Source of the DNA: a phage
Assembly: GCA_019326865.1 (NCBI GenBank)
Contig: GCA_019326865.1_4101.1
Length of the DNA stretch: 64,000 bases
Reading direction: 5' to 3' (one strand)
This document shows, piece after piece, positions 17,513 through 34,188 of this stretch. Position numbers and translations under genes: made by a program. Each line of letters begins with the position of its first letter. The first letter of the stretch is position 1. Below the pieces are notes generated by a model. That model saw only the letters and a program-made list of their open reading frames with translations, was not told the origin of the DNA and ran no database searches.

Positions 17513-17560
17513 ATTTCCCTCCTTTATTCATTATACTATATTTAATACTAAAAGAAAAAG

Positions 17561-17577
17561 CCAGTATCAAGTACTGG
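17561..17577 (-). terminator. hairpin ccagtatcaagtactgg
   Basis: Same hairpin, after stop of 17585..18694. Confidence 0.55.
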
Positions 17578-17584
17578 CATTATG

Positions 17585-18694
17585 TCATTTTGGTAAATTA
17601 ATTTTAGTAAAGGCTGCAACATCCTCGATTGCACCAGGAATTGCGTAATACGATCCAGTACTATATACATCTCCGTCTTTGGTTAATATTGATGTTAAAC
17701 CATCACTAAAAAGAACATCCCTAATCTCACTAACTTCAACGGGTAATTGTAAATTAGTAGCACTATATATTGCACCAGTTTGAGAATTGTTTAATCCCAA
17801 ACCACGGTTCGCCCCAACACCCTTCTGATATGTACTAGTAATTACCATTTGTGTAGCAGTATTTAAGGCAGGTGAATTCGTCATAAACAACGGTGAACTA
17901 TTAGGCAAAGTACTTGCAGGAACTGCACGAAATGTAGTTGTATCTGAACTAAGAAAGTTTGGCGTTTGACCACATACGAAATATGATGTACCATTATAGT
18001 AATTAAATGCATTACCACCAATGACTGCATCGATTACACCAGAGCTACGTAATCCCCACGTGTTAATTTGTGTTCGGTTCCCCGTGCCATGCTGACCCCT
18101 GTCATTCCACCCAGAACTATATAACTTATTATCTAATGTAATATACATACTGTCATTTGCATTCGTCATTACTTTACGCACATTAGTAGCACATTGAGTT
18201 AATGTGTAAATTGATGATGAACCAATACCTAAAGCACCACGATATCCATTAGCTCCTGCACCATAGAGTACTGAACTAGTGCTAAGTACAAATATTAAAC
18301 CATACGAACATACAATATTAGCAATTTCACTCACTGGTATAGCACTGGTAAACCAATTAGTTCTTTCAACTAATACTGTGCTGTAAGAAGTAGTTGTAGA
18401 CGATGTGAACCAATATGTTTCCCCTGATGTCCATATAGTATTATCATTTTTAATAATAACAAGTGCACGATCACCTACGAAAAAATTAGAAACATCTGCA
18501 CTTACTAATATCCATGAAGATACCGTGTTTTTATTACCATTTCCAGATTCACCACCTTGATTTCTACCTATGTAATATAAATCATGTGAATCAGTTAATA
18601 AGAATTGACCCTGTGTAGATGCACCAACTTTAATTATATTTTTAGGACCAGGTACAATATTCCCATAATCAAACATTCTTACAAAAGGTAACAT
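17585..18694 (-). CDS. RCC1-repeat-like protein, paralog 3; N-terminus MLPFVRMFDYGN
   Basis: Start placed at conserved MLPF methionine with SD ggag (track start is 15 nt upstream); motifs LYYIGRNQGGESGNG, LYSSGWNDRGQHGTGN. Confidence 0.65.
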   Translation of the reverse strand: MLPFVRMFDYGNIVPGPKNIIKVGASTQGQFLLTDSHDLYYIGRNQGGESGNGNKNTVSSWILVSADVSNFFVGDRALVIIKNDNTIWTSGETYWFTSSTTTSYSTVLVERTNWFTSAIPVSEIANIVCSYGLIFVLSTSSVLYGAGANGYRGALGIGSSSIYTLTQCATNVRKVMTNANDSMYITLDNKLYSSGWNDRGQHGTGNRTQINTWGLRSSGVIDAVIGGNAFNYYNGTSYFVCGQTPNFLSSDTTTFRAVPASTLPNSSPLFMTNSPALNTATQMVITSTYQKGVGANRGLGLNNSQTGAIYSATNLQLPVEVSEIRDVLFSDGLTSILTKDGDVYSTGSYYAIPGAIEDVAAFTKINLPK

Positions 18695-18768
18695 AACTAA
18701 AATCTCCATATAATAATTATAATGTATTTACAAAAAAATACCAGTACGTATTTCAGTACTGGTATCAT

Positions 18769-19950
18769 TTATGGTAAAATGATAGATTGTAACGAACTCA
18801 TACCCAATGCTGGAACACTAGCCTGTGGTGCTGGAGAATTCAATTTTGGTGATGAAACCGCATATGACATTCCTGAACCCAAATCTGGATCAAAAACTAC
18901 AGCACAATAATTCCCACTATATATAAGTCCATTCTTGTATCCTTGTGCACTTTGAATGCATTTCGTGAACGTACCAATATCTGTCGTGGCATTTATTAAG
19001 TTCCTCCCACGATAACCGCAGGTGTATATGAAATTATCATCGCCTATGTACATACTAGAATCCCCAGAAGAACTACATAGATACGACATATAAGCACGCA
19101 TGTTTTTAGGAGCAACTGACAATGTACCTGCATAGAATTTATTATTCGAACCCGTAATATCACCATCACCCAATGCACCAAAACTTCCCCAGCCAGTACC
19201 GTAATATCTCTTATCACTCAAAAATATAATACAGTTGTTATTACACATCTTGATTTGATATATCAATGAAGGATCAACCCCAGGGAATGATTCAGTGAAT
19301 GTTAGAACAGCCGGATCAGTACTAGCATTACATTGATGATATGTATTAGTACCAGCGGACAAGATTGTTCCATTAGCTAACAGAATTCTCGCAGTACCAG
19401 TACCAGCAGTACAAGCAACTGCACTTCCTGCACTTCCGGTGTATATTTGTCTGAAAGTAAAGAAACCAACAGTTTTACTTCCCTGCCCACTCCAACCAGT
19501 ATTATCAACTCCACACGCCCATACTGAACCATCTTGCATGATCATCATTACACCAAAGCGTTCTATTGAAATATAAACAATCTTCGTTGTATCAACTGCA
19601 CTAAATCTAGAAGTTATATCAGTCCATACCTTAACACTTACCGCCGTCGCACTGGAAGTAGGATCTTCACCAGCTATCATTATCCTCCCATTGTTAGTAA
19701 GATACATTGTCTGACTATAACCAGTACTACAAAACTTAACACTATCAGTCTCTGGAACTTTTAACCACTCGTTGTAACGTGTTACGTTAGTGTTATTACC
19801 TAACTGATAATAGTTATTCATCCCAGATACATATAACACACCATCCTTTATTAAACTATAAGTCGCACTATAGTCACTACAGGTATAACGTGTACCCACA
19901 GGTCGCTCAACGACGTTCCCGTACTTAACCATTCTCCCAAAAGGTAACAT
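18769..19950 (-). CDS. RCC1-repeat-like protein, paralog 4; N-terminus MLPFGRMVKYGN
   Basis: Motifs LYVSGMNNYYQLGNN, VWACGVDNTGWSGQG. Confidence 0.7.
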   Translation of the reverse strand: MLPFGRMVKYGNVVERPVGTRYTCSDYSATYSLIKDGVLYVSGMNNYYQLGNNTNVTRYNEWLKVPETDSVKFCSTGYSQTMYLTNNGRIMIAGEDPTSSATAVSVKVWTDITSRFSAVDTTKIVYISIERFGVMMIMQDGSVWACGVDNTGWSGQGSKTVGFFTFRQIYTGSAGSAVACTAGTGTARILLANGTILSAGTNTYHQCNASTDPAVLTFTESFPGVDPSLIYQIKMCNNNCIIFLSDKRYYGTGWGSFGALGDGDITGSNNKFYAGTLSVAPKNMRAYMSYLCSSSGDSSMYIGDDNFIYTCGYRGRNLINATTDIGTFTKCIQSAQGYKNGLIYSGNYCAVVFDPDLGSGMSYAVSSPKLNSPAPQASVPALGMSSLQSIILP

Positions 19951-19996
19951 ATTTTCCTCCTTTATTCATTATACTATATTTAATACAAAAAGAAAT

Positions 19997-20015
19997 GCCA
20001 GTATCAAGTACTGGC
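19997..20015 (-). terminator. hairpin gccagtatcaagtactggc
   Basis: Same hairpin, after stop of 20024..21172. Confidence 0.55.
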
Positions 20016-20023
20016 ATATTAAT

Positions 20024-21172
20024 TCATTGTATAAATGACATATCTACTTCTGTATAATTAAGAACGTTCTGTCCAGAAATACCACCCATTACTACTATTG
20101 CAAGGCCACAATAATATAATTTTCCAGTATCCGTAAGTATAAGTGATCCAGATGGACTGCGTACCAAATCACACGAACTATTAAAAGAAGTATAAGAAGG
20201 AGTATAGGAGTACTGATTATTATTATTACCAACACCTAATTGCCCAAACCCATTCGATCCAGAAGCATATAGAACTTCATCTGCTTTGACAATATGTGAT
20301 GCCATGTTACCAACACAAGTATATAGAGTATAAACTCCTGAACTCAATAATGTCGGAGTTTTATATTGTATATCTGTAGATGTAGAAGTACCACCTGTAC
20401 CAAATTCGTTCCCATATTGTGCACCGAACTGTTTACCACAAGCGTACAAATTATTATCCGATTTGATAAAAAATGTACTCTGATAACTTACATTAAAATC
20501 TATAACATCCGAAGAAATCATCGTCACCCCAGTAATAGAAGTTTGATTACCCGTGCCCAACTGGTAGTAATAGTTAAAACCACAACCCCATAAAGTATTA
20601 TCTTCTCGCAAATAAATGTTACCAACTGCCTTTTTAACCGAAGTTATAGTATCTACTCTTTTGAATGTGTTAAAAGAATTAATGTTTGTACCATCACCAA
20701 ATGATGATATGTTCGATATATTGTTAACTCCACAACAATACAATGTACCATCTTTTGTTATCAAATTCACCTTCATATCATAAAAACTACTCATGTATTT
20801 TATATCAGAAACATTAACACCACTTGATGTTATCCACGTAGTACAGTCCGTCCACAAAGTTTTTCTATCAGTTACACCAGTGAATGCCTTCGTGTTACCA
20901 GTGATAAAAACTTTTCCAGTACCTTTCTCTTCATACAATTGACAATCACTACTGTTATCTTCCAATAGAACTCGTTTAACATTCTCCGCACAAAGAATAA
21001 ATTTACTCGATGCTACACCTGTACCAGTACCCCAATTCGTCGCAGAAGATGCATACAACTTATCAGTATAAGTATCATGAAGATACATAGAATCACTGGA
21101 ATATATTTTAAAACGCCCTTCTTTCTCAGGTATAATATTCCCGTACTTAACCATTCTCCCAAAAGGTAACAT
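20024..21172 (-). CDS. RCC1-repeat-like protein, paralog 5; N-terminus MLPFGRMVKYGN
   Basis: Clearest RCC1-like motifs: LYASGSNGFGQLGVGN, LWGCGFNYYYQLGTGN. Confidence 0.75.
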   Translation of the reverse strand: MLPFGRMVKYGNIIPEKEGRFKIYSSDSMYLHDTYTDKLYASSATNWGTGTGVASSKFILCAENVKRVLLEDNSSDCQLYEEKGTGKVFITGNTKAFTGVTDRKTLWTDCTTWITSSGVNVSDIKYMSSFYDMKVNLITKDGTLYCCGVNNISNISSFGDGTNINSFNTFKRVDTITSVKKAVGNIYLREDNTLWGCGFNYYYQLGTGNQTSITGVTMISSDVIDFNVSYQSTFFIKSDNNLYACGKQFGAQYGNEFGTGGTSTSTDIQYKTPTLLSSGVYTLYTCVGNMASHIVKADEVLYASGSNGFGQLGVGNNNNQYSYTPSYTSFNSSCDLVRSPSGSLILTDTGKLYYCGLAIVVMGGISGQNVLNYTEVDMSFIQ

Positions 21173-21268
21173 ATCCCCTCCTTATTCATTATATCATATT
21201 TACCCAAAAAACACTTGACACCCTTTCAGTACTGTTGTACGATAGAAGGAATATTAGGAGAACTACAC

Positions 21269-21496
21269 ATGACAAATACCCTTAAGTACTACCTCAATAC
21301 TCTGCCCGACCTAGAGTACGGGAAGTTTCTCGCAGATAGTTCGTGGCTGATTGAGCTAAAAACACATAACAGCCCTGGATGCACCCTTATGATGAACAAT
21401 GCAATTGATACCCTTATAGTGAGTATTTTACATAGCAATATCTACGAGGATAACAATAAACAATTAACAAAAATCTTAGTACTGCTATCTCTATGA
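21269..21496 (+). CDS. small protein, family C (MHKEFY...LIYRY-type)
   Basis: Start at ATG with SD aggag; tandem paralog. Confidence 0.5.
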   Translation: MTNTLKYYLNTLPDLEYGKFLADSSWLIELKTHNSPGCTLMMNNAIDTLIVSILHSNIYEDNNKQLTKILVLLSL

Positions 21497-21705
21497 ACAC
21501 TATGAGCACTGAACAGTTCTACATCAATGCACTACCAACTAAAAGTCTTCAAGAAAGCTTACTGTATACACAAAAGAATTTTAAAAACTTCAAACGTTGC
21601 CCTAAACTACTGAACTCGTACAGGAATAATATTATAAGAAATGTTTTACAAGGAGAAGAAAGTATGCAATACTATCACATCCTTATCCTTATATTGGAGT
21701 ACTAA
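21493..21705 (+). CDS. small protein, family C
   Basis: Tandem paralog, ATGA overlap. Confidence 0.5.
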   Translation: MNTMSTEQFYINALPTKSLQESLLYTQKNFKNFKRCPKLLNSYRNNIIRNVLQGEESMQYYHILILILEY

Positions 21706-24730: not shown

Positions 24731-25386
24731 TTCAACATAGAGACAGGGGAAGCTCCGCAGGGTAAGCATTGGACAGGCTTTAACATATGTTATATATGTT
24801 AAAATTCAGCCTGGACAAATGCGATCACTAGGATTCTCCCCAGGCTAAACCCCGTAATCATATATAAACATTTAAGTAATCATTTATAATCATTGTGGTG
24901 ATCAGTAGTGATTAGTATTGAGTACTAGAGTGTAATAGAGTACAGGAATGTGCACGTTTAATCAAGAACGTAGCAGTACTGATATGCCACTAAGTAGGCA
25001 GAGGAAGTCTGCCGTACTTTGTAGTTTCCAAGCTCCTTTTCCATTTTGCAAATTACATCAAATGTAATCAAAAGTAATCACGTAATGATTAGTACTGAAA
25101 TATTAGTTTCATCTTTTTTCAAATACCTTTTTACCCTTCGGGATAAATGTATTTTTATCCATTTACCTTTGGGGTAAAATCCCATTACCCCTTGAGGCTC
25201 CAGCAAAAAGTTGGAAAGTACTCCATCGTAAATATGGATCGTAAAAATTTTGGAGTACCTATGAAATAAAAGTTGGATCTTCGAAAGTTGAAATTTACGT
25301 TGGGACATTGATGTTTTTTGGGATATAATGAGTTTTGTAGTGATGAAGTTTGTACGATTACAGTACTGAATAATGAAAGAAAGCTA

Positions 25387-25414
25387 TTGACATTATGATT
25401 CAGTACTGTATAAT
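25387..25414 (+). promoter_or_regulatory. orphan sigma70-like promoter (TTGACA -16- TATAAT) with no ORF downstream
   Basis: Consensus hexamers; only a ~20-codon ORF follows. Confidence 0.45.
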
Positions 25415-25785
25415 GTTCTACATAGAGAGATGAGTTGCCGCAAACAATTCATTCACTCTACCTCCTGTCGTGAGACAGTACAGAAAAGATAGTTCCTCCT
25501 ATGCGTGGTACATCTTTTTATAACCTCTTTTTTCGTAATATAAACAGTACTGGTATTAACAGAATGGTATCAGTACTGACTTTAATCTAATACATTATGC
25601 CACCAGCACAAGCTGGTGGATTCCCTCTAACAGTATTCAGTACTACATGATAGTCTTCATCCTCCTAGGGTAACATAGTGAGGGCTATTGTGGGAGTACT
25701 GAATACTCCTTTCAAAAGATAGAATAATGGTATAGTACCGACGGATTTTGGGCGTAGTTACCCTGGGTGGATTTTGGACGTAGAT

Positions 25786-25930
25786 ATGTCTAGCCCTCCA
25801 GAAGTCTGGAAGTAAAGATGGCTATCCATCTAGACGGCTAAACGGATAGATTTCTAGATGGCTGTATGGCTAGACGTTTGGATGGCTAAACGGCTAGATG
25901 GTTACACGTCTGGAAGTATAGACGGCTAAA
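25786..25930. repeat. cluster of short direct repeats (ggctaaacgg / ctagatgg / tctggaagta units), iteron-like
   Basis: Repeated 8-12 nt units in noncoding DNA. Confidence 0.5.
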
Positions 25931-26619
25931 TCAAAATTTTTATTTTGTTTTTCCAATAGTTCCCCTACCGCGTGAGGATATTTTTCCCCGCAGTATCTGG
26001 AGTTAGATTTTTCTGAATCTGGAATCATTATCTAATAAACTGGGGGCAATGTCAACCGCCTGGATGAATATTTTTAAAAATAATCTAGTACTGAATTTTG
26101 GGCGTAACTATGCACCCGGTGGGCTTGAGTCTTTCTCGACTTGATGAAACTATTATACAGTACTAGAAAAATAAAGCAATACCCTAAACGCAAAAAATTT
26201 AATTAATTTGCTTGCTATCCTGGGCCGTACTATGGTACTATTAGTTCAGTACTGAGAAAGTGCTTTAACCTGCTAGGGTGCGGGAGTGTATCCTTTTTAA
26301 ATTATATGAATTTTGGACGCAATCCCGCACCCTGTGGGTTAGTGCCTTGTGTCCGGCTTATGTAGTAATTATACGCTTTTTCAGTACTGAGTCAATAGCT
26401 AAAAACAAAAATAATTGAAAATAATTTAACGCGTTTAAACGGCCCGTAAAGCCCTGGAGTGATTGGAATGGTACAAATGTATAGCTTAGGTGTATTAATG
26501 CGTTAGAATGCGTCTGAGGCCGTTTTACGGGGTGTAGTGGTGATTTGGTTGATTCAGTACTGAATGATAGTATTCCTATATAGAAAGAAAACTATTTTAA
26601 AAGTACATGTAGAAAGTAC

Positions 26620-26647
26620 TTGCAAAGTATTGGGAAAGGTGTAGAAT
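26620..26647 (+). promoter_or_regulatory. early-type promoter TTGCAA -16- TAGAAT, followed by leader hairpin gcgggaacacttcccgc
   Basis: Hexamers and spacing read from sequence. Confidence 0.55.
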
Positions 26648-26702
26648 GTTTTACATCGAGAGCGGGAACACTTCCCGCTGCACATAAAGAGAGATTAAAA
26701 CG

Positions 26703-27065
26703 ATGGCTACTCAAATCAATAAAATTATTGCTAACCTGGTTAACTTCCGCGACGAGATGAAAGGTCTTCCGGCTGAAACGGTAAAAATTCACATTTCAGC
26801 TTATCGGGAACTTATTGCAATGTTACCGCTTAAGCGTGAACAATACGCCGCTACCGTGATGCTTGATGCGATGATCCATGAGATGATCGCCAGTGATTTA
26901 ACGATGGTTTATCAGTACATGGGCGAAAATTTCGCGGTGTCTGGTAAGCCAGTACCAGGGATGGCAACTACTGAGGAATTGCACGGTTTAAATTTAAAAC
27001 AAGATGCATGGGATAATATGCCTCGTTTCCTGGTATGGGCTGACAGTGGCAAAATTTACAAATAA
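26703..27065 (+). CDS. hypothetical protein (120 aa)
   Basis: ORF after promoter + leader hairpin; starts ATGGCT. Confidence 0.65.
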   Translation: MATQINKIIANLVNFRDEMKGLPAETVKIHISAYRELIAMLPLKREQYAATVMLDAMIHEMIASDLTMVYQYMGENFAVSGKPVPGMATTEELHGLNLKQDAWDNMPRFLVWADSGKIYK

Positions 27066-27079
27066 GTTTAATAAAGTAC

Positions 27080-27107
27080 TTGCATACTAAGTTAAAACAA
27101 GTATAAT
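27080..27107 (+). promoter_or_regulatory. early-type promoter TTGCAT -16- TATAAT
   Basis: Followed by two leader stem-loops (27127-27146, 27151-27165). Confidence 0.6.
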
Positions 27108-27150
27108 ACTTTCTATCAGGTGCAACGGGAAGTTTTTAAACTTCCCTATA

Positions 27151-27165
27151 GGGGAATAGTTCCCC
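27151..27165 (+). other. 5' leader palindrome ggggaatagttcccc
   Basis: Perfect 6-bp stems; same motif class upstream of >25 genes in 26.6-44.5 kb. Confidence 0.6.
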
Positions 27166-27186
27166 ACTATATAAGAGGATTAAAAA

Positions 27187-27426
27187 ATGGCTAAATCAAA
27201 AATGTTCTTAGGTCACAAAAACAAAACTCATTGGAATGTAAGCCTTTGGATTAATAACGATGAGTCATTGTACCGGTTGGCCCAGGACTTTATTGCCGCC
27301 AACACTAATCGCAATGATGCGGCCCGTCATATGATGTTATTTTTAGAACAGACTGGACAAGATAAAACACCGGACGGATTCAAATATAGCACTACTGCGA
27401 TCCGTGCGGCGATGGTTGGAATGTAA
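27187..27426 (+). CDS. hypothetical protein (79 aa), paralog of 29223 gene
   Basis: Shares HKNKTHWNVSLWINNDESLYR and GFKYSTTAIRAAMVGM with 29223..29462. Confidence 0.7.
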   Translation: MAKSKMFLGHKNKTHWNVSLWINNDESLYRLAQDFIAANTNRNDAARHMMLFLEQTGQDKTPDGFKYSTTAIRAAMVGM

Positions 27427-27511
27427 TAGAATTTATTTAAAGTACTATCGCAAAAAATGATAGTACTTTATAATAGTGTTTTATTCATACACCAACGATA
27501 AGGGCAACAGC

Positions 27512-27778
27512 ATGAATATTAAGTATTTTGCGACGCGTGAACAAGCTCGGAAGGCGGCGAAAGTGGAAGGTGCAACGTTTAAAGATATGGGCATACAATC
27601 GGAACGTGGTAAACGTTGGGCCATTGTAAAGCGTAGTACAGCCAGATCATTACAGTACTGGTTATCAGCTTTAAAAAGTCCTGATAGTGTATCGCGTCGA
27701 GTGGTAGAAATAAAGCTCGACCGTAAGGGGAATCGTGTTACCGTGTACCGTACTAAAAAGATTGCAGTACTTGAATAA
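27512..27778 (+). CDS. hypothetical protein, paralog of 39936 gene
   Basis: Shares KYFATREQAR..FKDMG..RKGNRVTVY; start at MNIKYF. Confidence 0.65.
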   Translation: MNIKYFATREQARKAAKVEGATFKDMGIQSERGKRWAIVKRSTARSLQYWLSALKSPDSVSRRVVEIKLDRKGNRVTVYRTKKIAVLE

Positions 27779-27784
27779 AAGTAC

Positions 27785-27812
27785 TTGCAAAGTAAGTTAA
27801 AAGGCGTATAAT
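27785..27812 (+). promoter_or_regulatory. early-type promoter TTGCAA -16- TATAAT + leader hairpin ggggaatacttcccc
   Basis: Read from sequence. Confidence 0.6.
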
Positions 27813-27862
27813 ACTTTCTATCAGGTGGGGAATACTTCCCCACTACATAAGAGGATTTAAAA

Positions 27863-28093
27863 ATGGCTACCATGTACATGACCGAAGTTAAAACCGTAAA
27901 AGATACTACCACAAATAAAACTACTTACTTACAGCGGATCTGTGGTGTATGGCAACGTATTAGTAAAGTAAAGTACTTTAAATTAACATCATATGCCAAT
28001 CGTTCGGATTCATTCAGTACTGAAATAAAAGGTAATAAAGTACACCAATACGGCACTTATTATTATTATAGCCTGGACGCGATTGCAGTATAA
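27863..28093 (+). CDS. hypothetical protein
   Basis: ORF after promoter cassette. Confidence 0.6.
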   Translation: MATMYMTEVKTVKDTTTNKTTYLQRICGVWQRISKVKYFKLTSYANRSDSFSTEIKGNKVHQYGTYYYYSLDAIAV

Positions 28094-28519
28094 GCAGTTT
28101 ACAAATCTTTACAATTGCCGGTATTGACTTAAAATGTCAGTACTGGCATAATGTATCTATTGAAACGAACAATTTGGCCCACGGGGTGCGGGAGTGTATC
28201 TATAGAAAAAGTAGTTTAGTACAGTTACAATTGTGCACCCGGTGGGTTAGCTGTTGTCATGGGGTATATTATGCCAGTACTTGATAATGCTGTCAATACC
28301 TTTTTACTATTCAGTACTGAAAACTATTTGATAAAAAGTACTTGCAAACTATGTTTAAAGGCGTATAATGTTTTACATCAGGACGGGGAACGAAATAAGT
28401 AACTTCCCGTTAAGTAGCCCAGGAGTAAGGCATACGAAAAACTCCCCTGATAAAATAGTTTGACAATTGTTTTTAAAAGCGTATAATACTTACATCAACT
28501 ACTTAATGAGGGTTACAAA

Positions 28520-29131
28520 ATGAAAACTATCACTACTACTACTTATGTTATGGATTTTTCTGAATTAAACGCAGAACAAAAAACGTCAGCTATCGAACTG
28601 GTTCGGGAACGTGAAAAAAACTTAAACGACGATTATTTTTCTGAAAGTGAAATTGAATACTATAAAGAAACAGTACTACCGGAATATGGCATTAATGAAG
28701 CTGAAATACAATTCAGTGGTTTTTGGTCGCAGGGTGACGGTGCATCAATTAGTACTGACCACGTTGACGCAGTGAAGTTTTTACGTAAGGTAAGAGCATT
28801 AACTAAGTATCGCTCAATCCGTCACCTGCTGAATGAAGATGATTTGGCGATGAGTGTAAAGCGTTCTCACTCCCGCTACTCACATGAGAACACTGTAAGC
28901 GGGTACATTGAATCGGCTTACACTGATTTAACCGCAAAACAAGAAACGTTAGTTAATGGGCTTGAGGAACTGCTCACTGATACTATTCGTGAATTGTCAC
29001 GCAAGTTATACCGTGATTTAGAGAATGCATATGAGGATCAATTCACTACTGAAAACATCGTATCACTGATTGAGGGTAACGAATATCAATTCAATGTTAT
29101 TGATGGCGTAGTAGAATCAATTGCATATTAA
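28520..29131 (+). CDS. hypothetical protein (203 aa)
   Basis: ORF after promoter TTGACA..TATAAT. Confidence 0.65.
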   Translation: MKTITTTTYVMDFSELNAEQKTSAIELVREREKNLNDDYFSESEIEYYKETVLPEYGINEAEIQFSGFWSQGDGASISTDHVDAVKFLRKVRALTKYRSIRHLLNEDDLAMSVKRSHSRYSHENTVSGYIESAYTDLTAKQETLVNGLEELLTDTIRELSRKLYRDLENAYEDQFTTENIVSLIEGNEYQFNVIDGVVESIAY

Positions 29132-29138
29132 AAAGTAC

Positions 29139-29166
29139 TTGCAAACTAAGTTTAAAAGCGTATAAT
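29139..29166 (+). promoter_or_regulatory. early-type promoter TTGCAA -16- TATAAT + leader hairpin gggggaatggttcccc
   Basis: Read from sequence. Confidence 0.6.
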
Positions 29167-29222
29167 ACTTTATATCGAGGCGGGGGAATGGTTCCCCTGC
29201 TCAAACAAACGAGGATTTAAAA

Positions 29223-29462
29223 ATGGCTAGTACTAAAACTTACAACGGACACAAAAACAAAACTCATTGGAATGTTTCATTGTGGATTAATAACGATGAA
29301 TCATTATACCGGATTGCTCAAAATTGCATCGCTCAAAGTAAAACGAAAGATATTGCAGCGGAATTTATGTACCGCAGATTAAAAGCCAACGGTACTACTA
29401 CAACGCCGGACGGATTCAAGTATAGCACTACGGCGATCCGTGCTGCAATGGTTGGAATGTAA
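29223..29462 (+). CDS. hypothetical protein, paralog of 27187 gene
   Basis: High identity to 27187..27426. Confidence 0.7.
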   Translation: MASTKTYNGHKNKTHWNVSLWINNDESLYRIAQNCIAQSKTKDIAAEFMYRRLKANGTTTTPDGFKYSTTAIRAAMVGM

Positions 29463-29518
29463 CATTCAGTACTGAATCAATGGCGGGTGTGGTTCCCGCC
29501 TTTACTGAGGATTATCTA

Positions 29519-29800
29519 ATGAGTAAAGTAATTAACTATACAGTACTAAGCAAGTCATTATCTATTAGCCAGTGCACCGATGGTTTTTGGCTGTACGATG
29601 AAACGCGTGGCATGAATTTAGCTATGCAGGAGAAAACTGCTGATGCGGCATATCTTAAAGCACTGGAATACTACCAGAAGCGTTTAACGGAAGTAGAAAA
29701 CGATTATAATAACCTTAAAGCGAAAGTGGATAATTTCGTTGGTCAATTCGTTGACGATGACGAGGGGCACTACTGCGACCGTTGTGGATCTTACAGTTAA
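29519..29800 (+). CDS. hypothetical protein
   Basis: Start at MSKVINY with SD gagga. Confidence 0.55.
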   Translation: MSKVINYTVLSKSLSISQCTDGFWLYDETRGMNLAMQEKTADAAYLKALEYYQKRLTEVENDYNNLKAKVDNFVGQFVDDDEGHYCDRCGSYS

Positions 29801-29817
29801 GTACTAAGGATTATATA

Positions 29818-30021
29818 ATGAGTGATTTAATTGAACGTATCAAAGAGCTTGAAGAAAAAGAATTGCAGTTGATCGGTTTACAGAATAAAATCTATCATGA
29901 TTTGGGGAGTTTTATCAATGCGTGGGATAATGGCGATCCTGATGCGTTACCTGCTAACCGCCAGGCAATGATCAATGATGTGCGTGGTGTCTTTGAGTAT
30001 GTTTTAAAGCAATTAAATTAA
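29818..30021 (+). CDS. hypothetical protein
   Basis: Start at MSDLIERIK. Confidence 0.55.
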   Translation: MSDLIERIKELEEKELQLIGLQNKIYHDLGSFINAWDNGDPDALPANRQAMINDVRGVFEYVLKQLN

Positions 30022-30031
30022 AAAAAAGTAC

Positions 30032-30059
30032 TTGCAATTAGTTTTTAGTACTGTATAAT
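30032..30059 (+). promoter_or_regulatory. early-type promoter TTGCAA -16- TATAAT + leader hairpin ggggagaaatggttctccc
   Basis: Read from sequence. Confidence 0.6.
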
Positions 30060-30109
30060 GTTTTACATAGAGGGGAGAAATGGTTCTCCCTGGTAATGAG
30101 GAAAATACA

Positions 30110-30331
30110 ATGGCTAATATCACTACTCTTTCTCAACTGGAAGCACTGGTTAAATCTATGCGGGAACATGCCGACAAAATCGGCGTAAAAGATCCAGCCG
30201 TTTGCTTCTGCGACGAAATGAATGATGATACATTGGTAATAGCAGAAGTTCAGGACGTTTCTAACTATTCATCGCGTTACACTGGCGGCGTAGCAAATAA
30301 AGGTGACTTCTGTTTATACCTTACCAAATAA
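30110..30331 (+). CDS. hypothetical protein
   Basis: Start at MANITTL; track start 30080 lies inside leader hairpin. Confidence 0.6.
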   Translation: MANITTLSQLEALVKSMREHADKIGVKDPAVCFCDEMNDDTLVIAEVQDVSNYSSRYTGGVANKGDFCLYLTK

Positions 30332-30574
30332 CAACGCGGGGAGATAATAACTCCCCGTTACTTTTTCAGTACTGAATAATTTAATAGACGGATCTATGCA
30401 CCCAGTGGGTTAGTGACTGTTTCGTCTTTATGTAGTAATTATGCCAGTACTGGATGCACTTGTCAACAACTATTTTTCAAATACTTTTTATTAAAATACT
30501 TGCAATTAGTTTTTAAACGCGTATAATGTTTTGCATAGGGGGAGCGGTTCCCCTGGTAACTAAGGAATAAGAAA

Positions 30575-30811
30575 ATGGTCGAACAAATCAAATCAACGTC
30601 TTCGAATGTAACGGGAACGGTAGCACACTTTACTTGTGATGAATCGCGGGGCGTTCCCTATTGTGCTGTACATGTAAACACTGAGGGTAACTACTGGTTT
30701 ACGGTTTACGGATCATATTCATTTGGACGGCCAGGGCATCAAAAAATTCTGGATAAAGTACAACCAACGGGTAAAAATATCACTGCCGAAATGTTTTATA
30801 AAAACAAATAA
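30575..30811 (+). CDS. hypothetical protein
   Basis: Promoter cassette upstream. Confidence 0.6.
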   Translation: MVEQIKSTSSNVTGTVAHFTCDESRGVPYCAVHVNTEGNYWFTVYGSYSFGRPGHQKILDKVQPTGKNITAEMFYKNK

Positions 30812-30905
30812 AAGTACTTGATAATAGTTTGACTATGTATTACAGTACTGTATAATAGATACATAAGGGGCGAATAGTTTGCCCCTAGTACAAAGGGGAA
30901 ACATT

Positions 30906-31136
30906 ATGCCAGGCCGAATAGTTTTACTTAACGCTGGAAGTACTACACAACTCCTTAACGCCGTGTATTATGATATTGAAACGAGCGTCAATCTTATCAG
31001 TACTGTAGTATTGTTGGACACTGGAAAGGTCGCAAATGATAAAGCGATTGCAGGTATACTAACGGATCTTAAACCAGGTTGCAGTACTCCAATAACTTTA
31101 AATGATAAAGTGTTTAATATTTTACTAACTGATTAA
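30906..31136 (+). CDS. hypothetical protein
   Basis: Start after leader hairpin ggggcgaatagtttgcccc. Confidence 0.55.
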   Translation: MPGRIVLLNAGSTTQLLNAVYYDIETSVNLISTVVLLDTGKVANDKAIAGILTDLKPGCSTPITLNDKVFNILLTD

Positions 31137-31143
31137 GTACATA

Positions 31144-31165
31144 GCCCACCTGGTGGGCTTTTTTG
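31144..31165 (+). terminator. terminator gcccac-ctg-gtgggc + T-run
   Basis: GC stem then tttttt. Confidence 0.6.
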
Positions 31166-31360
31166 TTTTTGTAGTACTGCATACTTTGAAAATAGTTTTA
31201 AAAAAGTAGTTGACATTACCGCAAAAAGGCGTAGAATGTATTACATCAAGACGGGGAGCACTAAGTAGACCGCCAGTAAGTCGAACGAAAAACTGGACAC
31301 GTCGAGAAAACTTTGATACACTAACTAACATAAACTAAACTTTAATTGAGGATTTATAAA

Positions 31361-31843
31361 ATGGCTAATGTAAAATCATTTCTGAAAGCACTGATTTCTA
31401 ACGATACTGCTATTGCTGCTGAATTGCTGGCGGATCTGGATAGCGATACCATGAAAGCGGTACGCAACAATTTTAACATTGCGTACAGTGAAGCTAAAGA
31501 ACTGCAAGCCAAAAAGATAGCAGAACTGGAAGAACAGAAAAAAGCCCGTGAAGAAGAATTACAAGCAACAATTGAAAGTATTCAGGCGGCGGTTGCAGGG
31601 TTGGATCTGGAAGTAGTTATTGAAATGGCACATAAAGCCCTGGCAGTTAAGTACGGTGAAGATAAGCCAGTATCTAAACCTAAAAAATGGATTCAGGAAC
31701 GCGTAACGGTTGTTCTTGATAATGGCGAGGAACATTTAATTCCCGTGCGTGGTAACTGCATTGCGGTAGTTCTGGATGCTATCAAAGAAAGCGGATTGAC
31801 TCGCGAGGAATGGATCGAAGCTCACCGCAAGATTGAAGCATAA
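31361..31843 (+). CDS. hypothetical protein (160 aa), charged/helical
   Basis: Start MANVKSF. Confidence 0.65.
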   Translation: MANVKSFLKALISNDTAIAAELLADLDSDTMKAVRNNFNIAYSEAKELQAKKIAELEEQKKAREEELQATIESIQAAVAGLDLEVVIEMAHKALAVKYGEDKPVSKPKKWIQERVTVVLDNGEEHLIPVRGNCIAVVLDAIKESGLTREEWIEAHRKIEA

Positions 31844-31864
31844 CAATTAAAGTACTGAATCACT

Positions 31865-31892
31865 AGCCCACTTCTTATAGTGGGCTTTTTTG
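31865..31892 (+). terminator. terminator agcccac..gtgggct + T-run
   Basis: Stem-loop then tttttt. Confidence 0.6.
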
Positions 31893-32107
31893 TGTTTATC
31901 GTTTACCAGTCCACTAGCACCGCCTAGAATCGATTCTAACGCATTAAACTGGTCGCCCTAGCTGGTGGCATTAATGCCGTTAGAACGCGATTGAGGACGT
32001 TTAAAGTATTTTTGCAAAAAGTAATAAAAAGTACTTGCACGATTAAGAGATTAGAGTATAATTAATTACATCAAGACAAGACACCTTAACTAACTGAGGA
32101 TATAAAG

Positions 32108-32260
32108 ATGAATACTTATGAACTGGATTGTTTTACTTTACAAGTAATGTCAGTATGCAGTAAAAAAGATTGGTCATCAAAGGAATTTAAAGCAGTTATT
32201 GCGTGTGCAAAACACGGCAAGACTATCAATGAAACGGCATCAATCATTGATAAACTTTAA
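32108..32260 (+). CDS. hypothetical small protein (50 aa)
   Basis: Short ORF after promoter, SD gagga. Confidence 0.4.
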   Translation: MNTYELDCFTLQVMSVCSKKDWSSKEFKAVIACAKHGKTINETASIIDKL

Positions 32261-32331
32261 AAAATAGTTTGACAATAGTTTTAAGTACTGCGATAATACA
32301 TACATCAACTACTGAATAGGAATAAAAAACA

Positions 32332-32559
32332 ATGGCTATCGTAATCACTCGCGTAACTGGTACTACTGGCACTGCTTCAAATGTTGCTGTAATTACTAAT
32401 AAGAAAGGTGCAGAATTACATTTTGCAATGGATAAATGGGCCGTTAATGAGTTTGGTCAGTGGGCAAGTGTAGCATACATTGAAACCTATCAAGTGCCAT
32501 CGATTAGCTTAACTGATTTAGGTGTAGAACGTATCCTTTGCCTGGATGAATTAAATTAA
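32332..32559 (+). CDS. hypothetical protein
   Basis: Starts ATGGCT after promoter. Confidence 0.6.
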   Translation: MAIVITRVTGTTGTASNVAVITNKKGAELHFAMDKWAVNEFGQWASVAYIETYQVPSISLTDLGVERILCLDELN

Positions 32560-32645
32560 AAAAGTACTTGCAAAGTAAATCGAATAAAGTATAATACATT
32601 ACATCAAGGGGAGAAAATGGTTCTCCCCACTAAGAGGAAACTAAT

Positions 32646-32789
32646 ATGAAAACTTGTCAATGTGGTAAAAAATCTATTACTGGTTTGAAACGGGGCGTTG
32701 CACTTTGCCAGTACCATTATAATTTACAAGTATGGGGTAAAGAATGGGCCGATCAGGTGGAAGCAATAAAGAAAGCAAAAAGTAAGTAA
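32646..32789 (+). CDS. hypothetical small Cys-containing protein (47 aa)
   Basis: Short ORF after promoter + hairpin. Confidence 0.4.
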   Translation: MKTCQCGKKSITGLKRGVALCQYHYNLQVWGKEWADQVEAIKKAKSK

Positions 32790-32869
32790 AAAATATTATC
32801 ACAGTACTATTGACATAGATTGATAGTACTGGCATAATAGATTTTATTAAAACAACTGAGGAAATTAAA

Positions 32870-33082
32870 ATGGCTATCATTACTAAAATCAAAGTAAACA
32901 AAACACTGGTTAAGCTGGAACAAGTGAAAGAAGGTTATAAAGTATCTTGGTGCGGTATGTATCGGACGTTCGCAGATGTAGACGATGCAATCAATTACTA
33001 CACTGACACGGTTAAAAACTTTGTTCGTGCTGATGTGGTTATGGCAGTGGCAACATATAAAGCATCAAAAGAAAGTAAGTAA
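32870..33082 (+). CDS. hypothetical protein, paralog of 35824 gene
   Basis: Identical promoter block upstream; N-terminus MAII. Confidence 0.6.
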   Translation: MAIITKIKVNKTLVKLEQVKEGYKVSWCGMYRTFADVDDAINYYTDTVKNFVRADVVMAVATYKASKESK

Positions 33083-33164
33083 AAATATTATCACAGTACT
33101 ATTGACATAGATTGATAGTACTGGCATAATAGATTTTATCAAGACAACTAAGAGGAAATTAAAA

Positions 33165-33509
33165 ATGGCTAACATCAATACTATAGCAGCACAAAATATC
33201 AACCTGTCTTCTGTTGAAGTTGTACACATTGCCGCCCGGCGTTGGTTCCAGGCGTCTTATGGTAATACGTATTTCTCTTTAACGGTAGATGTTGAAATCA
33301 ATGGCGAATTTATTGAAGTAGTAAACGTGCCGTTCCAATATGGCTACGGGGATCATTTTGACACTGTAGCAATGGAAGAATTTAGCAAGGTTATTAATAT
33401 GGAAGGTAAAGAGTTTTTACGCGGTTCTTATCTTTCCCGTTTTTGCCGTGATAATAATATCACTGTTTATAGTTCTGTTAGTGATGTTAAACGCAAAAAA
33501 GATCTTTAA
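33165..33509 (+). CDS. hypothetical protein, paralog of 39526 gene (C-terminal VKRKKD)
   Basis: Shared C-terminal motif. Confidence 0.6.
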   Translation: MANINTIAAQNINLSSVEVVHIAARRWFQASYGNTYFSLTVDVEINGEFIEVVNVPFQYGYGDHFDTVAMEEFSKVINMEGKEFLRGSYLSRFCRDNNITVYSSVSDVKRKKDL

Positions 33510-33589
33510 TTAGCTTTACTTTATGCAGATACTTTGATATAGTGTCTGCATAGGGGAAAGAAATTAAATCAACTTAAGAGGATAGTAAA

Positions 33590-33859: not shown

Positions 33860-33910
33860 TCAAAACATCGTTAGCGGTCGATTTAGGCCGCTTATACTGG
33901 GGATTATATA

Positions 33911-34183: not shown

Positions 34184-34188
34184 TTAAT

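What the first reader, a model, noticed from the sequence alone, without database searches (positions are those of the whole stretch)
24731..26702. 2-kb stretch with no convincing ORF, dense in repeats, palindromes and an orphan promoter
This is unusually long for noncoding DNA in an otherwise compact genome. It holds iteron-like short direct repeats (25786-25930), many CAGTACTG palindromes, several copies of a cacccggtgggtta-type element and of a cgttagaa(t/c)gc element that recur in later intergenic gaps (28175-28300, 30395-30455, 31900-32000, 36300-36350), and a consensus promoter (25387-25414) with no ORF behind it. Candidates are a replication origin, packaging site, or small RNA genes.
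Basis: seen in the sequence. Interest (0 to 1): 0.62.

Follow-up and report, generated by a model that had tools for sequence, protein, structure and literature searches.

The report
Phage chromosome end with MetJ-box array
The gene-free 2 kb is the leader at the physical left end of a giant E. coli phage chromosome; besides the packaging cut site and early promoters it holds 14 tandem copies of what looks like the host methionine repressor's binding site, an array also found near DNA ends in two unrelated phage families.

Summary
The window is an Asteriusvirus (121Q/PBECO4-like jumbo coliphage), and 24731-26702 has no ORF conserved among 15 relatives, no tRNA and no Rfam match.

Seven independently sequenced relatives with determined or deposited terminal repeats all begin at the same nucleotide, which is window 24993. 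One of them was confirmed by PhageTerm and restriction digests. The region is therefore the last 262 nt of unique DNA plus the first 1.71 kb of a 20.36-kb direct terminal repeat (24993-~45351).

The leader contains:
- a conserved cut-site block;
- three near-consensus sigma-70 promoters (0.09 expected), including the "orphan" one, which belongs to the phage's early-promoter family and precedes a structured, covarying non-coding transcript;
- the "iterons", an 8-bp-period array.

Scored with the published MetJ met-box matrix, this array is the only site in the 64 kb that passes: 14 contiguous boxes, 98 bits, against 25-31 bits for E. coli's metB and metF operators. Similar arrays sit close to the deposited record starts or terminal repeats of other Rak2-like, T5-like and T7-like phages. 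All but one of those hosts belong to orders that have MetJ.

The closest analogue is T5's untranslated "injection-stop" repeat region. MetJ binding and its purpose are inferred, not shown.

The parts
24731..24992 (.). Last 262 nt of the unique region, just left of the terminal-repeat boundary. It holds an invariant block at about 24796-24858 with a 7-bp-stem hairpin (AGCCTGG/CCAGGCT), then a variable stretch of 10-bp repeats (GTAATCA at 24854 and 24876).
   Evidence: Alignment of 15 genomes. Fold z -3.4, but essentially no covariation. Tandem repeats.
24974..25013 (+). Conserved cut-site block CAGTACTGATATGCCACTA|AGTAGGCAGAGGAAGTCTGCC. The physical left terminus, which is the first base of the terminal repeat, is 24993. 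AAGTC lies at nt 13-17 from the end.
   Evidence: G17, BF17, vB_Ec-M-J, fEgEco12, CRJP21, ELP-22 and E9.1 all start (G17: ends) at AGTAGGCAG.... [quoted passage not shown] AAGTC sits at the same distance from the record start in Muenster, CBB and pEa_SNUABM_12/BF.
24993..45351 (+). Direct terminal repeat, about 20.36 kb. It is present once in this collapsed assembly and would be at both ends of virion DNA. It carries some 50 small + strand ORFs, most with their own sigma-70 promoter.
   Evidence: The G17 repeat 1..20668 is 100% identical to the record's other end and maps to window 45352..24993. The right end matches in G17 and vB_Ec-M-J. Promoter families.
25064..25092 (+). Three 10-bp-phased GTAATCA/GTAATGA repeats, 70-100 nt inside the terminus. 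They are candidate binding sites for the small terminase subunit (inferred).
   Evidence: Four of the window's 24 GTAATCA copies lie within 230 nt of the cut. vB_Ec-M-J has one extra 10-bp unit.
25198..25300 (+). Block with the highest conservation in the leader (0.96-0.97). It has three imperfect direct repeats of about 28 nt (AAAAGTTGGA...TAAAT), and a fourth in EJP2. Function unknown.
25387..25414 (+). The 'orphan' consensus promoter TTGACA-16-TATAAT, with CAGTACTG in the spacer. It belongs to the phage's TTGACA...TAGTACTGTATAAT early-promoter family.
   Evidence: 12 of 12 match. It is the reference copy of a 12-member repeat family of gene promoters in the terminal repeat (D5). Conservation 0.94.
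25420..25620 (+). Predicted non-coding leader transcript of about 200 nt with five hairpins. These include a 5' stem-loop, the 14-bp CAGTACTG...CAGTACTG palindrome (25545-25578) and the GC hairpin 25601-25620, which is annotated as a terminator in G17.
   Evidence: MFE -59.9 kcal/mol, z -5.41. Seven pairs changed on both sides against 2.1+/-1.2 in shuffles and 0-5 in slid controls; G-U pairs in helix 1. G17 terminator annotation.
25743..25786 (+). Two AATTTTGGRCGTA motifs directly upstream of the array. Further copies lie at 26095 and 26310. The motif also precedes the arrays of GAP32 and pEa_SNUABM_12.
25776..25927 (.). Array of nineteen 8-bp units, consensus AGA(C/T)G(G/T)CT. Sixteen pass the MetJ met-box threshold. 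The core 25816-25927 is 14 contiguous boxes totalling 98.4 bits.
   Evidence: Published weight matrix and thresholds (PMC3228920) applied. It is the only passing site in 64 kb; the best of 100 shuffles scored 21.7 bits. Substitution rate is as low as codon positions 1+2 of the neighbouring gene in most comparisons.
25928..25975 (+). A/T-rich tract followed by CCAATAGTTCCCCTACCGCG. A CCAWTAGYTCCCCTWCCGCG block also follows the arrays of GAP32, pEa_SNUABM_12 and fHe-Yen9-04.
26027..26055 (-). Leftward promoter TTGACA-17-GATAAT. Its transcript would run into the array, about 90 nt downstream, and on toward the terminus.
   Evidence: 11 of 12 match. Both hexamers are conserved while 121Q has about 12 substitutions confined to the spacer.
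26147..26309 (+). Block conserved at 75% with Klebsiella Alcyoneusvirus phages (Muenster nt 1152-1309, inside its PhageTerm-predicted terminal repeat). It reads as a promoter (TTGCTA-N18-TACTAT here, consensus-like in Muenster), then about 50 nt, then the weak hairpin AGGGTGCGGGAGTGTATCCT+TTTT. It is a candidate small transcript.
26275..26333 (.). Inverted repeat with 19-nt arms, built from two copies of a repeat found only in the terminal repeat (GGGTGCGGGAGTGTATC / CACCCKGTGGG family).
   Evidence: I12; D17.
26368..26395 (-). Second leftward promoter, TTGACT-16-TATAAT, with CAGTACTG in the spacer. Similar minus-strand modules lie at about 28296 and 30466.
26400..26545 (+). Very conserved block (0.93-0.98) containing CGTTAGAATGC-N5-AGGCCGTTTTA. 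Related copies lie at 31977 and 36325. No significant fold. Function unknown.
   Evidence: Fold z -0.32.
26620..26702 (+). Promoter of the first gene in the terminal repeat (AAAGTACTTGCAA-16-TAGAAT), the 5'-UTR hairpin 26661-26679, and the ribosome-binding site. The start codon is at 26703.
   Evidence: Member of the 13-16-copy promoter families D1-D3. Sequence.

Best explanation
Core claim. The stretch is the non-coding leader at the left physical end of an Asteriusvirus chromosome. The terminase cut that creates the left end falls at 24993. So 24731-24992 is the tail of the unique DNA, and 24993-26702 is the first 1.7 kb of a 20.36-kb direct terminal repeat that carries the phage's small, individually promoted genes, presumed early.

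The leader is a mosaic of cis-acting elements rather than genes:
(i) A conserved cut-site block with AAGTC 13-17 nt from the end, flanked by 10-bp-phased GTAATCA repeats. I infer these are terminase recognition elements.
(ii) One inward and two outward near-consensus sigma-70 promoters. They make short non-coding transcripts. The inward 'orphan' promoter gives a structured RNA of about 200 nt.
(iii) 14-16 tandem 8-bp boxes that fit the operator model of the host methionine repressor MetJ. I infer that SAM-loaded host MetJ coats this array.

Purpose of the array (inferred). It either titrates MetJ, which would de-repress methionine/SAM synthesis as phage copies accumulate. Or it forms a nucleoprotein block near the repeat edge, analogous to the DnaA-box 'injection stop' region at the edge of phage T5's terminal repeat.

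Shown versus inferred. Shown here: the position of the terminus by homology, the absence of a conserved ORF, the promoter matches, the RNA covariation, the met-box scores and the cross-family occurrence of the array. Inferred: MetJ binding, terminase binding, and every functional consequence.

Confidence. The 0.75 below is for the core claim (terminus plus non-coding leader). I put MetJ binding at about 0.4.
For: Terminus.
- Seven records from different laboratories start or end at the identical base.
- fEgEco12 was confirmed experimentally. vB_Ec-M-J annotates a direct terminal repeat 1..21525. G17's roughly 20-kb redundancy comes from read coverage.
- The right boundary agrees in two records.

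Non-coding.
-.

Constraint.
- Leader divergence (5-14% in most comparisons) is below third-codon-position divergence of the next gene in five of ten comparisons, about equal in two, and higher in ph0011, BF17 and EJP2.
- The array diverges about as little as codon positions 1+2 in most comparisons, but clearly more in EJP2.

Promoters.
- Three sites reach at least 11 of 12, against 0.086 expected.
- The orphan promoter is in the gene-promoter family.
- The spacer-only divergence in 121Q supports the leftward promoter.

RNA.
-.

Met boxes.
- Matrix and thresholds come from PMC3228920.
- Window: one site, 14 boxes, 98.4 bits. The best of 100 shuffles scored 21.7 bits.
- The same scan recovers E. 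coli metJ/metB (4 boxes, 31.2 bits) and metF (4 boxes, 24.9 bits) and nothing else in 8.5 kb.
- Indels between genomes are multiples of 8.
- Arrays of 9-28 boxes occur in EJP2, G17, CBB, GAP32, Eneladusvirus, the T5-like Pontus, AhSzq-1 and Noelle, and the T7-like PGT2. All lie within about 0.8 kb of a deposited record start or in a terminal repeat.
- BLAST hits to the array are confined to phages of Enterobacterales, Vibrio and Aeromonas, plus one Xanthomonas phage. MetJ exists only in five gammaproteobacterial orders.
- PA5oct, a Rak2-like relative on Pseudomonas, has no met-box site in 45 kb.
- No phage record encodes a MetJ homologue.
Against: - No read data for this genome. The terminus is placed by homology only.
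- A random tandem 8-mer would reach this met-box score in some phase about 1.4% of the time, so the match is suggestive, not decisive.
- Position 6 of the boxes is G more often than the consensus T.
- The array is not at a met-gene promoter and is 3-7 times longer than any natural operator.
- Klebsiella Alcyoneusvirus Muenster and T5 lack the array although their hosts have MetJ.
- One array-bearing phage is listed on Xanthomonas, which has no MetJ.
- The host distribution is partly an ascertainment effect of BLAST among related phages.
- The hairpin at 25601-25620 lacks a U-tract, so the 3' end of the leader RNA is uncertain.
- It is not known which DNA end enters the cell first.
Confidence: 0.75

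Rival explanations
1. Replication origin. The 8-bp array and its adjacent A/T-rich tract would act as iterons plus an unwinding element. Alternatively, the ORF-less promoters would prime replication through an R-loop, as at T4 oriF/ori34 (recalled from memory).
For: - Repeats next to an A/T-rich tract.
- Convergent strong promoters with no ORF.
- The cumulative GC skew has its minimum at about 25 kb.
- By my recollection, the phage group uses a T4-like replisome (not retrieved here).
Against: - No DnaA boxes in 24.5-27 kb.
- No initiator gene was identified among the ORFs examined nearby.
- The repeat unit is 8 bp and palindrome-like, not the 17-22-bp iteron I recall for plasmid and phage origins.
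- The skew turn coincides with the chromosome end and largely follows gene orientation.
- The same array occurs inside the roughly 260-bp terminal repeat of a T7-like phage and in the T5-type injection-stop region. The T5 paper states that T5 replication origins lie near the centre of the molecule, not there.
Confidence: 0.12
2. The array is the binding site of a phage-encoded protein, for example a ribbon-helix-helix protein or a small terminase subunit. Its likeness to met boxes would then be coincidental.
For: - The arrays sit near deposited record starts or terminal repeats in all three phage groups, which suggests a packaging or end function.
- Box position 6 deviates systematically from the MetJ optimum.
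- Chance of a met-box-like unit is about 1.4%.
Against: - Three phage lineages with unrelated virion and packaging genes share the same unit. This is more easily explained by a shared host factor.
- No MetJ-like gene is found in any phage record.
- Pfam scans of ten neighbouring ORFs show no DNA-binding fold.
- Close relatives of array-bearing phages (T5, Muenster) package similar chromosomes without an array.
Confidence: 0.3
3. Graveyard of decayed early-gene cassettes. The leader would be leftover promoters, UTR hairpins and spacer repeats from genes that have been lost, with no function of its own beyond the cut site.
For: - The orphan promoter and the first bases of its transcript match gene cassettes elsewhere in the repeat.
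- Spacer repeats are shared with later intergenic gaps.
- A stop-free frame persists in 12 of 15 genomes.
Against: - Substitution rates are below synonymous-site rates in half of the comparisons.
- Several blocks are 0.93-0.98 conserved.
- The array and its flanks are conserved across genera, and the 26147-26309 block is shared with Klebsiella phages.
- Compensatory changes keep the hairpins.
Confidence: 0.1
4. The region is chiefly a cluster of small regulatory RNA genes, and the DNA-level repeats are incidental.
For: - Structured, covarying transcript behind the orphan promoter.
- Candidate 50-nt transcript unit conserved with Klebsiella phages.
- The relative PA5oct expresses two abundant non-coding RNAs from its terminal repeat (PMC7318152).
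Against: - No Rfam family.
- The most conserved blocks (25198-25300, 26400-26545) do not fold better than shuffles or show no promoter.
- The array evolves by whole 8-bp units, which is DNA-repeat behaviour.
Confidence: 0.2

Closest known systems
Untranslated Repeat Region 3 / injection stop signal (iss) at the edge of phage T5's terminal repeat (Davison 2020, bioRxiv 10.1101/866236; annotation of AY587007)
   Same: - It is an ORF-free 1-2-kb stretch that straddles one boundary of a long direct terminal repeat. T5's is 1.2 kb and overruns the repeat by 270 bp; this one is 1.97 kb and overruns by 262 bp.
[quoted passage not shown] - It carries clustered boxes for a host DNA-binding protein.
- In the T5-like Vibrio and Aeromonas phages, the met-box array sits in the equivalent region, next to T5 DRD-like GTGCAAATCCGAC repeats.
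   Different: - The boxes are MetJ-type, not DnaA-type. There are no DnaA boxes here and no met-box array in T5.
- No sequence homology to T5.
- Two-step DNA transfer has not been reported for Asteriusvirus, as far as I found.
- The genes in the repeat all point away from the leader.
MetJ operators of the E. coli methionine regulon (tandem 8-bp met boxes, optimum AGACGTCT; PMC3413123, PMC3228920)
   Same: - Tandem 8-bp units with no spacer.
- Per-position base use closely follows the published matrix: A/G, G, A, C/T | G, T/G, C, T.
- The site passes the published two-level threshold.
- Individual boxes such as AAACGGAT and GGACGTCT occur verbatim in the metF operator.
   Different: - 14-28 contiguous boxes, against the 4-box runs this scan scored at metJ/metB and metF and the maximum of 5 reported for metF.
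- Not placed over a met-gene promoter.
- G is favoured at position 6.
- Binding is untested.
Left end of phage T7: terminal repeat, arrays of short repeats beside it, and host-RNAP promoters A1-A3 that draw the genome in (recalled from memory, not retrieved here)
   Same: - Exact chromosome ends with a direct repeat.
- Short-unit repeat arrays within a few hundred bp of the end.
- Strong host-type promoters facing inward with no ORF directly behind the first one.
- The T7-like phage PGT2 carries nine met-box units at nt 38-109 of its genome. From the IMG/VR match positions I infer a terminal repeat of about 260 bp.
   Different: - The repeat here is 20 kb, not 160 bp.
- T7's repeat unit is different.
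- Transcription-driven entry is not known for this phage.
Promoter-early stem-loop (PeSL) cassettes of T4-type phages (recalled from memory)
   Same: Small ORFs each framed by a near-identical early promoter and a stem-loop, repeated dozens of times. This would favour recombination and shuffling, and explains why motifs from the leader recur in later gaps.
   Different: - The sequences are unrelated.
- Here the hairpin lies in the 5' UTR after the promoter.
- AGTACT is built into the promoters.

Membership tests
Fixed chromosome end / boundary of a long direct terminal repeat (T5/T7-type packaging) | The sequence coincides with experimentally determined virion DNA ends in close relatives. | tested here: met
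   [quoted passage not shown] Its first base aligns to window 24993.
Fixed chromosome end / boundary of a long direct terminal repeat (T5/T7-type packaging) | The same end nucleotide is found in independent isolates. | tested here: met
   Seven records share AGTAGGCAGAGG... as the first (or, in reverse complement, the last) bases. The right end agrees in two records.
Fixed chromosome end / boundary of a long direct terminal repeat (T5/T7-type packaging) | Two-fold read depth over the repeat and read starts piling up at the ends in this genome. | not testable with these tools
   No reads are available for the window's source.
MetJ operator | At least two adjacent 8-bp boxes, each at least a quarter of the consensus score, and a total at least equal to the consensus score (published criterion). 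| tested here: met
   14 contiguous boxes, 98.4 bits against a threshold of 12.58. It is the only such site in 64 kb. The method was calibrated on metJ/metB and metF.
MetJ operator | The host encodes MetJ. | tested here: met
   The hosts of the close relatives are E. coli and Salmonella. MetJ is present in Enterobacterales and annotated in K-12.
MetJ operator | The site overlaps or abuts the promoter of a methionine-related gene, typically within about 75 bp of the start codon. | tested here: not met
   There is no met gene nearby. The array lies about 90-240 nt downstream of a leftward ORF-less promoter.
MetJ operator | SAM-dependent binding by MetJ protein. | not testable with these tools
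   Requires a gel shift, footprint or ChIP.
Iteron- or DnaA-type replication origin | DnaA boxes, or 17-22-bp iterons beside an initiator gene. | tested here: not met
   No TTWTNCACA in 24.5-27 kb. The repeat unit is 8 bp. Flanking ORFs have no Pfam match.
Iteron- or DnaA-type replication origin | A strand-composition switch that marks where replication begins. | tested here: inconclusive
   The skew minimum at about 25 kb coincides with the chromosome end and with a change of gene strand at 21 kb.
Known structured RNA family (tRNA, tmRNA, Rfam) | A match to a curated covariance model or a tRNA model. | tested here: not met
   ARAGORN found 0 genes. Rfam gave 0 at gathering score and a best E-value of 1.
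T5 injection stop signal | Paired DnaA boxes within the IRD'-spacer-IRC' inverted repeats. | tested here: not met
   No DnaA boxes. BLAST finds no homology to T5 itself.
T5 injection stop signal | DNA transfer pauses at the site during infection. | not testable with these tools
   Requires a blender or shear experiment, or time-resolved entry mapping.

The most novel reading that the evidence does not exclude
Phages from three unrelated families that package exact-ended, terminally repeated DNA carry 9-28 tandem operators for the host methionine repressor near a chromosome end. The families are Rak2-like jumbo myoviruses, T5-like siphoviruses of Vibrio and Aeromonas, and a T7-like podovirus. 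These phages would be hijacking SAM-loaded MetJ. One possible use is as a sponge, lifting repression of methionine/SAM synthesis as genomes multiply. Another is as a nucleoprotein stop or anchor at the repeat edge during DNA entry or packaging, which would be the MetJ counterpart of the DnaA boxes proposed for T5's injection stop signal. On the second reading, jumbo phages of this group may use a T5-style two-step DNA transfer, with the 20-kb repeat as the first-step DNA.
Probability: 0.33. Interest if true: 0.8.

Novelty: new variant of a known kind. Interest (0 to 1): 0.6.

Why it matters
Placing the chromosome end at 24993 turns an unexplained gap into a defined set of cis elements: a cut site, entry-proximal promoters and leader RNAs. 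This matters for a phage group now being developed for therapy, in which about 80% of genes are of unknown function.

If the met-box array does bind MetJ, it would be a new way for a virus to use a host metabolic repressor. I found no report of met boxes in phage DNA in the searchable literature.

It would also make two long-standing questions experimentally testable. One is what the repeat arrays beside T7- and T5-type chromosome ends are for. The other is what physically constitutes an injection stop signal.

Tried and rejected
- tRNA and tmRNA scan: nothing.
- Rfam at gathering and at permissive thresholds: only noise, E>=1.
- Hidden gene: six-frame ORF conservation across 15 genomes found none. 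The best frame is broken in this window.
- DnaA boxes: none.
- Phage-encoded MetJ: tblastn found only bacterial contaminant records.
- T5 itself and Klebsiella phage Muenster: no met-box array.
- Exact degenerate patterns for the array were too strict to be useful in collection scans. A 19-nt seed from the array's 3' end found 15 IMG/VR stretches on 11 contigs, several of which have the lengths of phages already seen in GenBank.
- The 24745-24850 element folds well (z -3.4) but shows essentially no covariation. The 26400-26545 block does not fold better than shuffles.
- Resemblance of AGTACT/CTAG motifs to SlmA or TrpR sites was considered from memory. I set it aside because the flanking bases differ. 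This was not tested.
- CAGTACTG as a feature special to this region: rejected, because it is enriched throughout 22-45 kb.
- Pfam on ten neighbouring ORFs gave only a GNAT acetyltransferase and two DUFs.
Full report
**Identity of the window.** The 1972-nt stretch matches 43 phage records at 86-94% identity. Almost all are Asteriusvirus, the 121Q/PBECO4-like jumbo coliphages of about 350 kb. The window has no tRNA and no Rfam match at curated thresholds. Most annotators of these genomes leave the homologous 2 kb empty.

**Check of the observation.**
- The gap holds no ORF conserved among 15 aligned genomes. The most persistent open frame lacks an ATG, is frameshifted in this window and changes non-conservatively.
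- The short direct repeats form an 8-bp-period array at 25776-25927.
- CAGTACTG occurs 47 times in the window against 0.68 expected. However, its core AGTACT is 11-fold enriched throughout (227 vs 20), with a symmetric context and highest density from 22 to 45.5 kb. The palindromes are real but not a property of this region.
- CACCCKGTGGG occurs 11 times against 0.34 expected, always between 26113 and 43935. The CGTTAGAAYGC element is weaker.
- The promoter at 25387-25414 is a 12 of 12 match.

**Where the region lies.**
- Several related records are 20-35 kb longer than the rest and hit the query twice.
- In G17, bases 1-20668 are repeated exactly at the other end of the record. The paper reports about 20 kb of terminal redundancy from read coverage.
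- Mapping G17 onto the window puts the inner boundary of that repeat at 24993 and the outer one at about 45352.
- Six further records begin with the same bases, AGTAGGCAGAGGAAGTCTGCC, which is window 24993 onward. They are BF17, vB_Ec-M-J (annotated 'Direct Terminal Repeats 1..21525'), fEgEco12, CRJP21, ELP-22 and E9.1.
- For fEgEco12 the ends were found with PhageTerm and confirmed by restriction digests.
- The right end agrees between G17 and vB_Ec-M-J, and corresponds to ...GGGTAACT|TAGCGGC at 45351/45352.
- The finding therefore consists of the last 262 nt of unique DNA plus the first 1710 nt of a 20.36-kb direct terminal repeat. In virion DNA this leader is the extreme left end, and it recurs about 20 kb from the right end.

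**Is it constrained?** Sliding identity across the 15 genomes is 0.85-0.98 over most of the leader. There are a few variable islands: 24840-24940, 25120-25180, 25320-25360, 25500-25540, 26300-26360 and 26520-26560. Pairwise divergence of the leader is below that of third codon positions in the next gene in five of ten comparisons, about equal in two, and higher in ph0011, BF17 and EJP2. The array diverges about as little as codon positions 1+2 in most comparisons, though clearly more in EJP2. This argues against junk DNA, but the gene sample is small (121 codons).

**The cut site.**
- The 19 nt left of the cut and at least 100 nt right of it are conserved, whereas DNA further left is variable.
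- The record starts of representatives of three other Rak2-like genera, where termini are predicted or deposited, share AAGTC at nucleotides 13-17 from the end. These are Muenster (PhageTerm), CBB (coverage and PFGE) and pEa_SNUABM_12/BF.
- The sequence just right of the right boundary (TAGCGGCTTCGATAAAGGGG) resembles these left termini.
- Four of the window's 24 GTAATCA heptamers lie within 230 nt of the cut, at 10-bp phasing.
- I read these as terminase recognition elements. That is inference.

**Promoters and transcripts.**
- The terminal repeat holds 26 sigma-70 sites with at least 11 of 12 matches, 21 of them on the + strand.
- They fall into two families: AAAAGTACTTGCAA-N16/17-TATAATGTTTTACATC and TATTGACA-N9-TAGTACTGTATAAT. 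Both are followed by a 5'-UTR hairpin and a ribosome-binding site. This accounts for part of the AGTACT excess and for motifs recurring in later gaps.
- The 'orphan' promoter is the reference copy of the second family.
- The finding region has three sites at 11 of 12 or better, against 0.086 expected: 25387 (+), 26055 (-) and 26395 (-).
- For the 26055 promoter, 121Q keeps both hexamers while its spacer carries about 12 substitutions.
- The roughly 200 nt behind the orphan promoter fold with z -5.4.
- Across ten distinct relatives, 7 of 38 pairs change on both sides while staying paired. Shuffles give 2.1+/-1.2 and none of 500 reach the observed value. Slid controls give 0-5.
- Helix 1 contains G-U pairs that would be mismatches on the other strand. 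A structured non-coding leader RNA is therefore likely, though its 3' end is unclear.
- A second small unit at 26205-26295 is conserved at 75% with Klebsiella phage Muenster, inside that phage's predicted terminal repeat.
- In the distant relative PA5oct, the terminal repeat is transcribed early and encodes two abundant non-coding RNAs.

**The array.**
- A distant BLAST search showed that the array segment, alone in the region, matches phages outside the genus. These are Mimasvirus (GAP32, CBB), Eneladusvirus (Yersinia, Erwinia and Serratia phages), T5-like Demerecviridae of Vibrio and Aeromonas, and the T7-like coliphages PGT2 and phiKT.
- Written in 8-bp register, all are runs of AGA(C/T)G(G/T)CT-type units.
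- I applied the published half-box weight matrix and thresholds. The window then has exactly one site: 14 contiguous boxes at 25816-25927, 98.4 bits. The best of 100 shuffles scored 21.7 bits.
- The same script finds the known metJ/metB and metF operators in E. coli K-12 (4 boxes each, 31.2 and 24.9 bits) and nothing else in 8.5 kb.
- Other phages score 9-28 boxes. T5, Muenster and the Pseudomonas relative PA5oct (45 kb scanned) score none.
- Length differences between Asteriusvirus genomes are multiples of 8.
- MetJ occurs only in Enterobacterales, Pasteurellales, Vibrionales, Aeromonadales and Alteromonadales. The array-bearing phages infect Enterobacterales, Vibrio and Aeromonas, with one Xanthomonas exception.
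- No phage record encodes a MetJ homologue.
- Caveats. A random tandem 8-mer would look this good in some phase about 1.4% of the time. Box position 6 is G more often than T. The host pattern is partly an ascertainment effect. Nothing here shows binding.

**Position of the arrays.**
- In Asteriusvirus the array begins 783 nt from the left end.
- In CBB it lies at 685-812 of the annotated repeat.
- In Eneladusvirus records it lies at about 670-840.
- In PGT2 it lies at 38-109. From the IMG/VR match positions I infer a terminal repeat of about 260 bp there.
- In the T5-like Vibrio phage Noelle the array lies at the edge of the pre-early block, on the side distal to dmp, A1 and A2. It sits next to repeats like T5's DRD.
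- That is the position of T5's untranslated Repeat Region 3, the presumed injection stop signal. In T5 that region is 1.2 kb, overruns the repeat by 270 bp and carries DnaA boxes.
- The present region is 1.97 kb, overruns by 262 bp and carries met boxes instead. It has no DnaA box.

**Mechanism, with the steps marked.**
- Shown: the terminus position (by homology), the non-coding status, the promoter quality, the RNA covariation, and the array's fit to the MetJ model and its cross-family recurrence near ends.
- Inferred: terminase recognises the cut-site block. The promoters fire early from host RNA polymerase. SAM-MetJ polymerises on the array.
- Two consequences are possible and not exclusive. 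One is titration of MetJ as phage DNA accumulates, at two arrays per genome. The other is a nucleoprotein block or anchor at the repeat edge during entry or packaging.
- I cannot tell which DNA end enters the cell first.

**Rivals.**
- An origin of replication lacks positive evidence but is not excluded.
- A phage-encoded ligand for the array remains a serious alternative (about 0.3).
- A cassette graveyard is disfavoured by the conservation.
- A pure small-RNA locus explains only part of the region.

**Verdict.** The core finding is ordinary in kind but was not described for this group: it is the terminal leader of a terminally repeated phage chromosome. The met-box array is unexpected and testable. 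I found no report of it in three literature searches.

Noticed in passing
whole window; densest at 22000-45500, 50000-52000 and 60000-64000: The hexamer AGTACT occurs 227 times against 20 expected, with a symmetric context T..CAGTACTG..A. It is built into both early-promoter classes, upstream of the -35 in one and abutting the -10 in the other. It also lies inside ORFs. Its ligand or purpose is unknown.
   Followed up: partly
window 21200-24730: A run of + strand ORFs of about 60 aa has strongly negative GC skew (-0.2) and high AT skew. This is opposite to the other + strand genes in the window.
   Followed up: no
window 24993-45351: Nearly every small ORF in the terminal repeat has its own near-consensus sigma-70 promoter and a 5'-UTR hairpin (GGGGAAnnGTTCCCC). 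There are 26 sites with at least 11 of 12 matches. The layout resembles the promoter/stem-loop cassettes of T4-type phages.
   Followed up: partly
window 28177, 34834-34969, 38562-38697, 41571-41706, 43855-43960: A dispersed repeat is found only in the terminal repeat. It consists of a terminator-like hairpin that contains a -35 (GGGATTGACTCCGGTCAGTCCC), then TATTAT, then about 40 nt ending in GCCCACAGGGTGCGGGAGTGTATC. It may be a family of very short transcripts. Inverted copies form the 19-nt-arm inverted repeat at 26275-26333.
   Followed up: partly
window 24993-25013 and 45352-45372; L023, L026, L021 and L032 nt 1-21: The left termini of four Rak2-like genera share AAGTC at nt 13-17 from the end. 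The sequence to the right of the right repeat boundary resembles these left termini. This suggests that one nuclease specificity acts at both boundaries.
   Followed up: partly
window 14944-21172, minus strand: Five consecutive ORFs of about 375-450 aa of similar size, possibly paralogous, lie on the minus strand just before the small-ORF run. Their counterparts in relatives are annotated as RCC1/GTPase-regulator-like.
   Followed up: no
window 25198-25300: This is the most conserved part of the leader (0.96-0.97). It is three imperfect direct repeats of about 28 nt (AAAAGTTGGA...TAAAT). EJP2 has a fourth copy. No function is suggested.
   Followed up: no
L044 (PA5oct 1-45000): The Pseudomonas relative PA5oct has no met-box site anywhere in its 39-kb terminal repeat, and its leader has ORFs from nt 122. 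This is consistent with its host lacking MetJ, but it is a single case.
   Followed up: partly
window 26610-26709: A record labelled Campylobacter phage A150 matches this promoter/5'-UTR segment at 79% over 100 nt. This is odd for that host.
   Followed up: no
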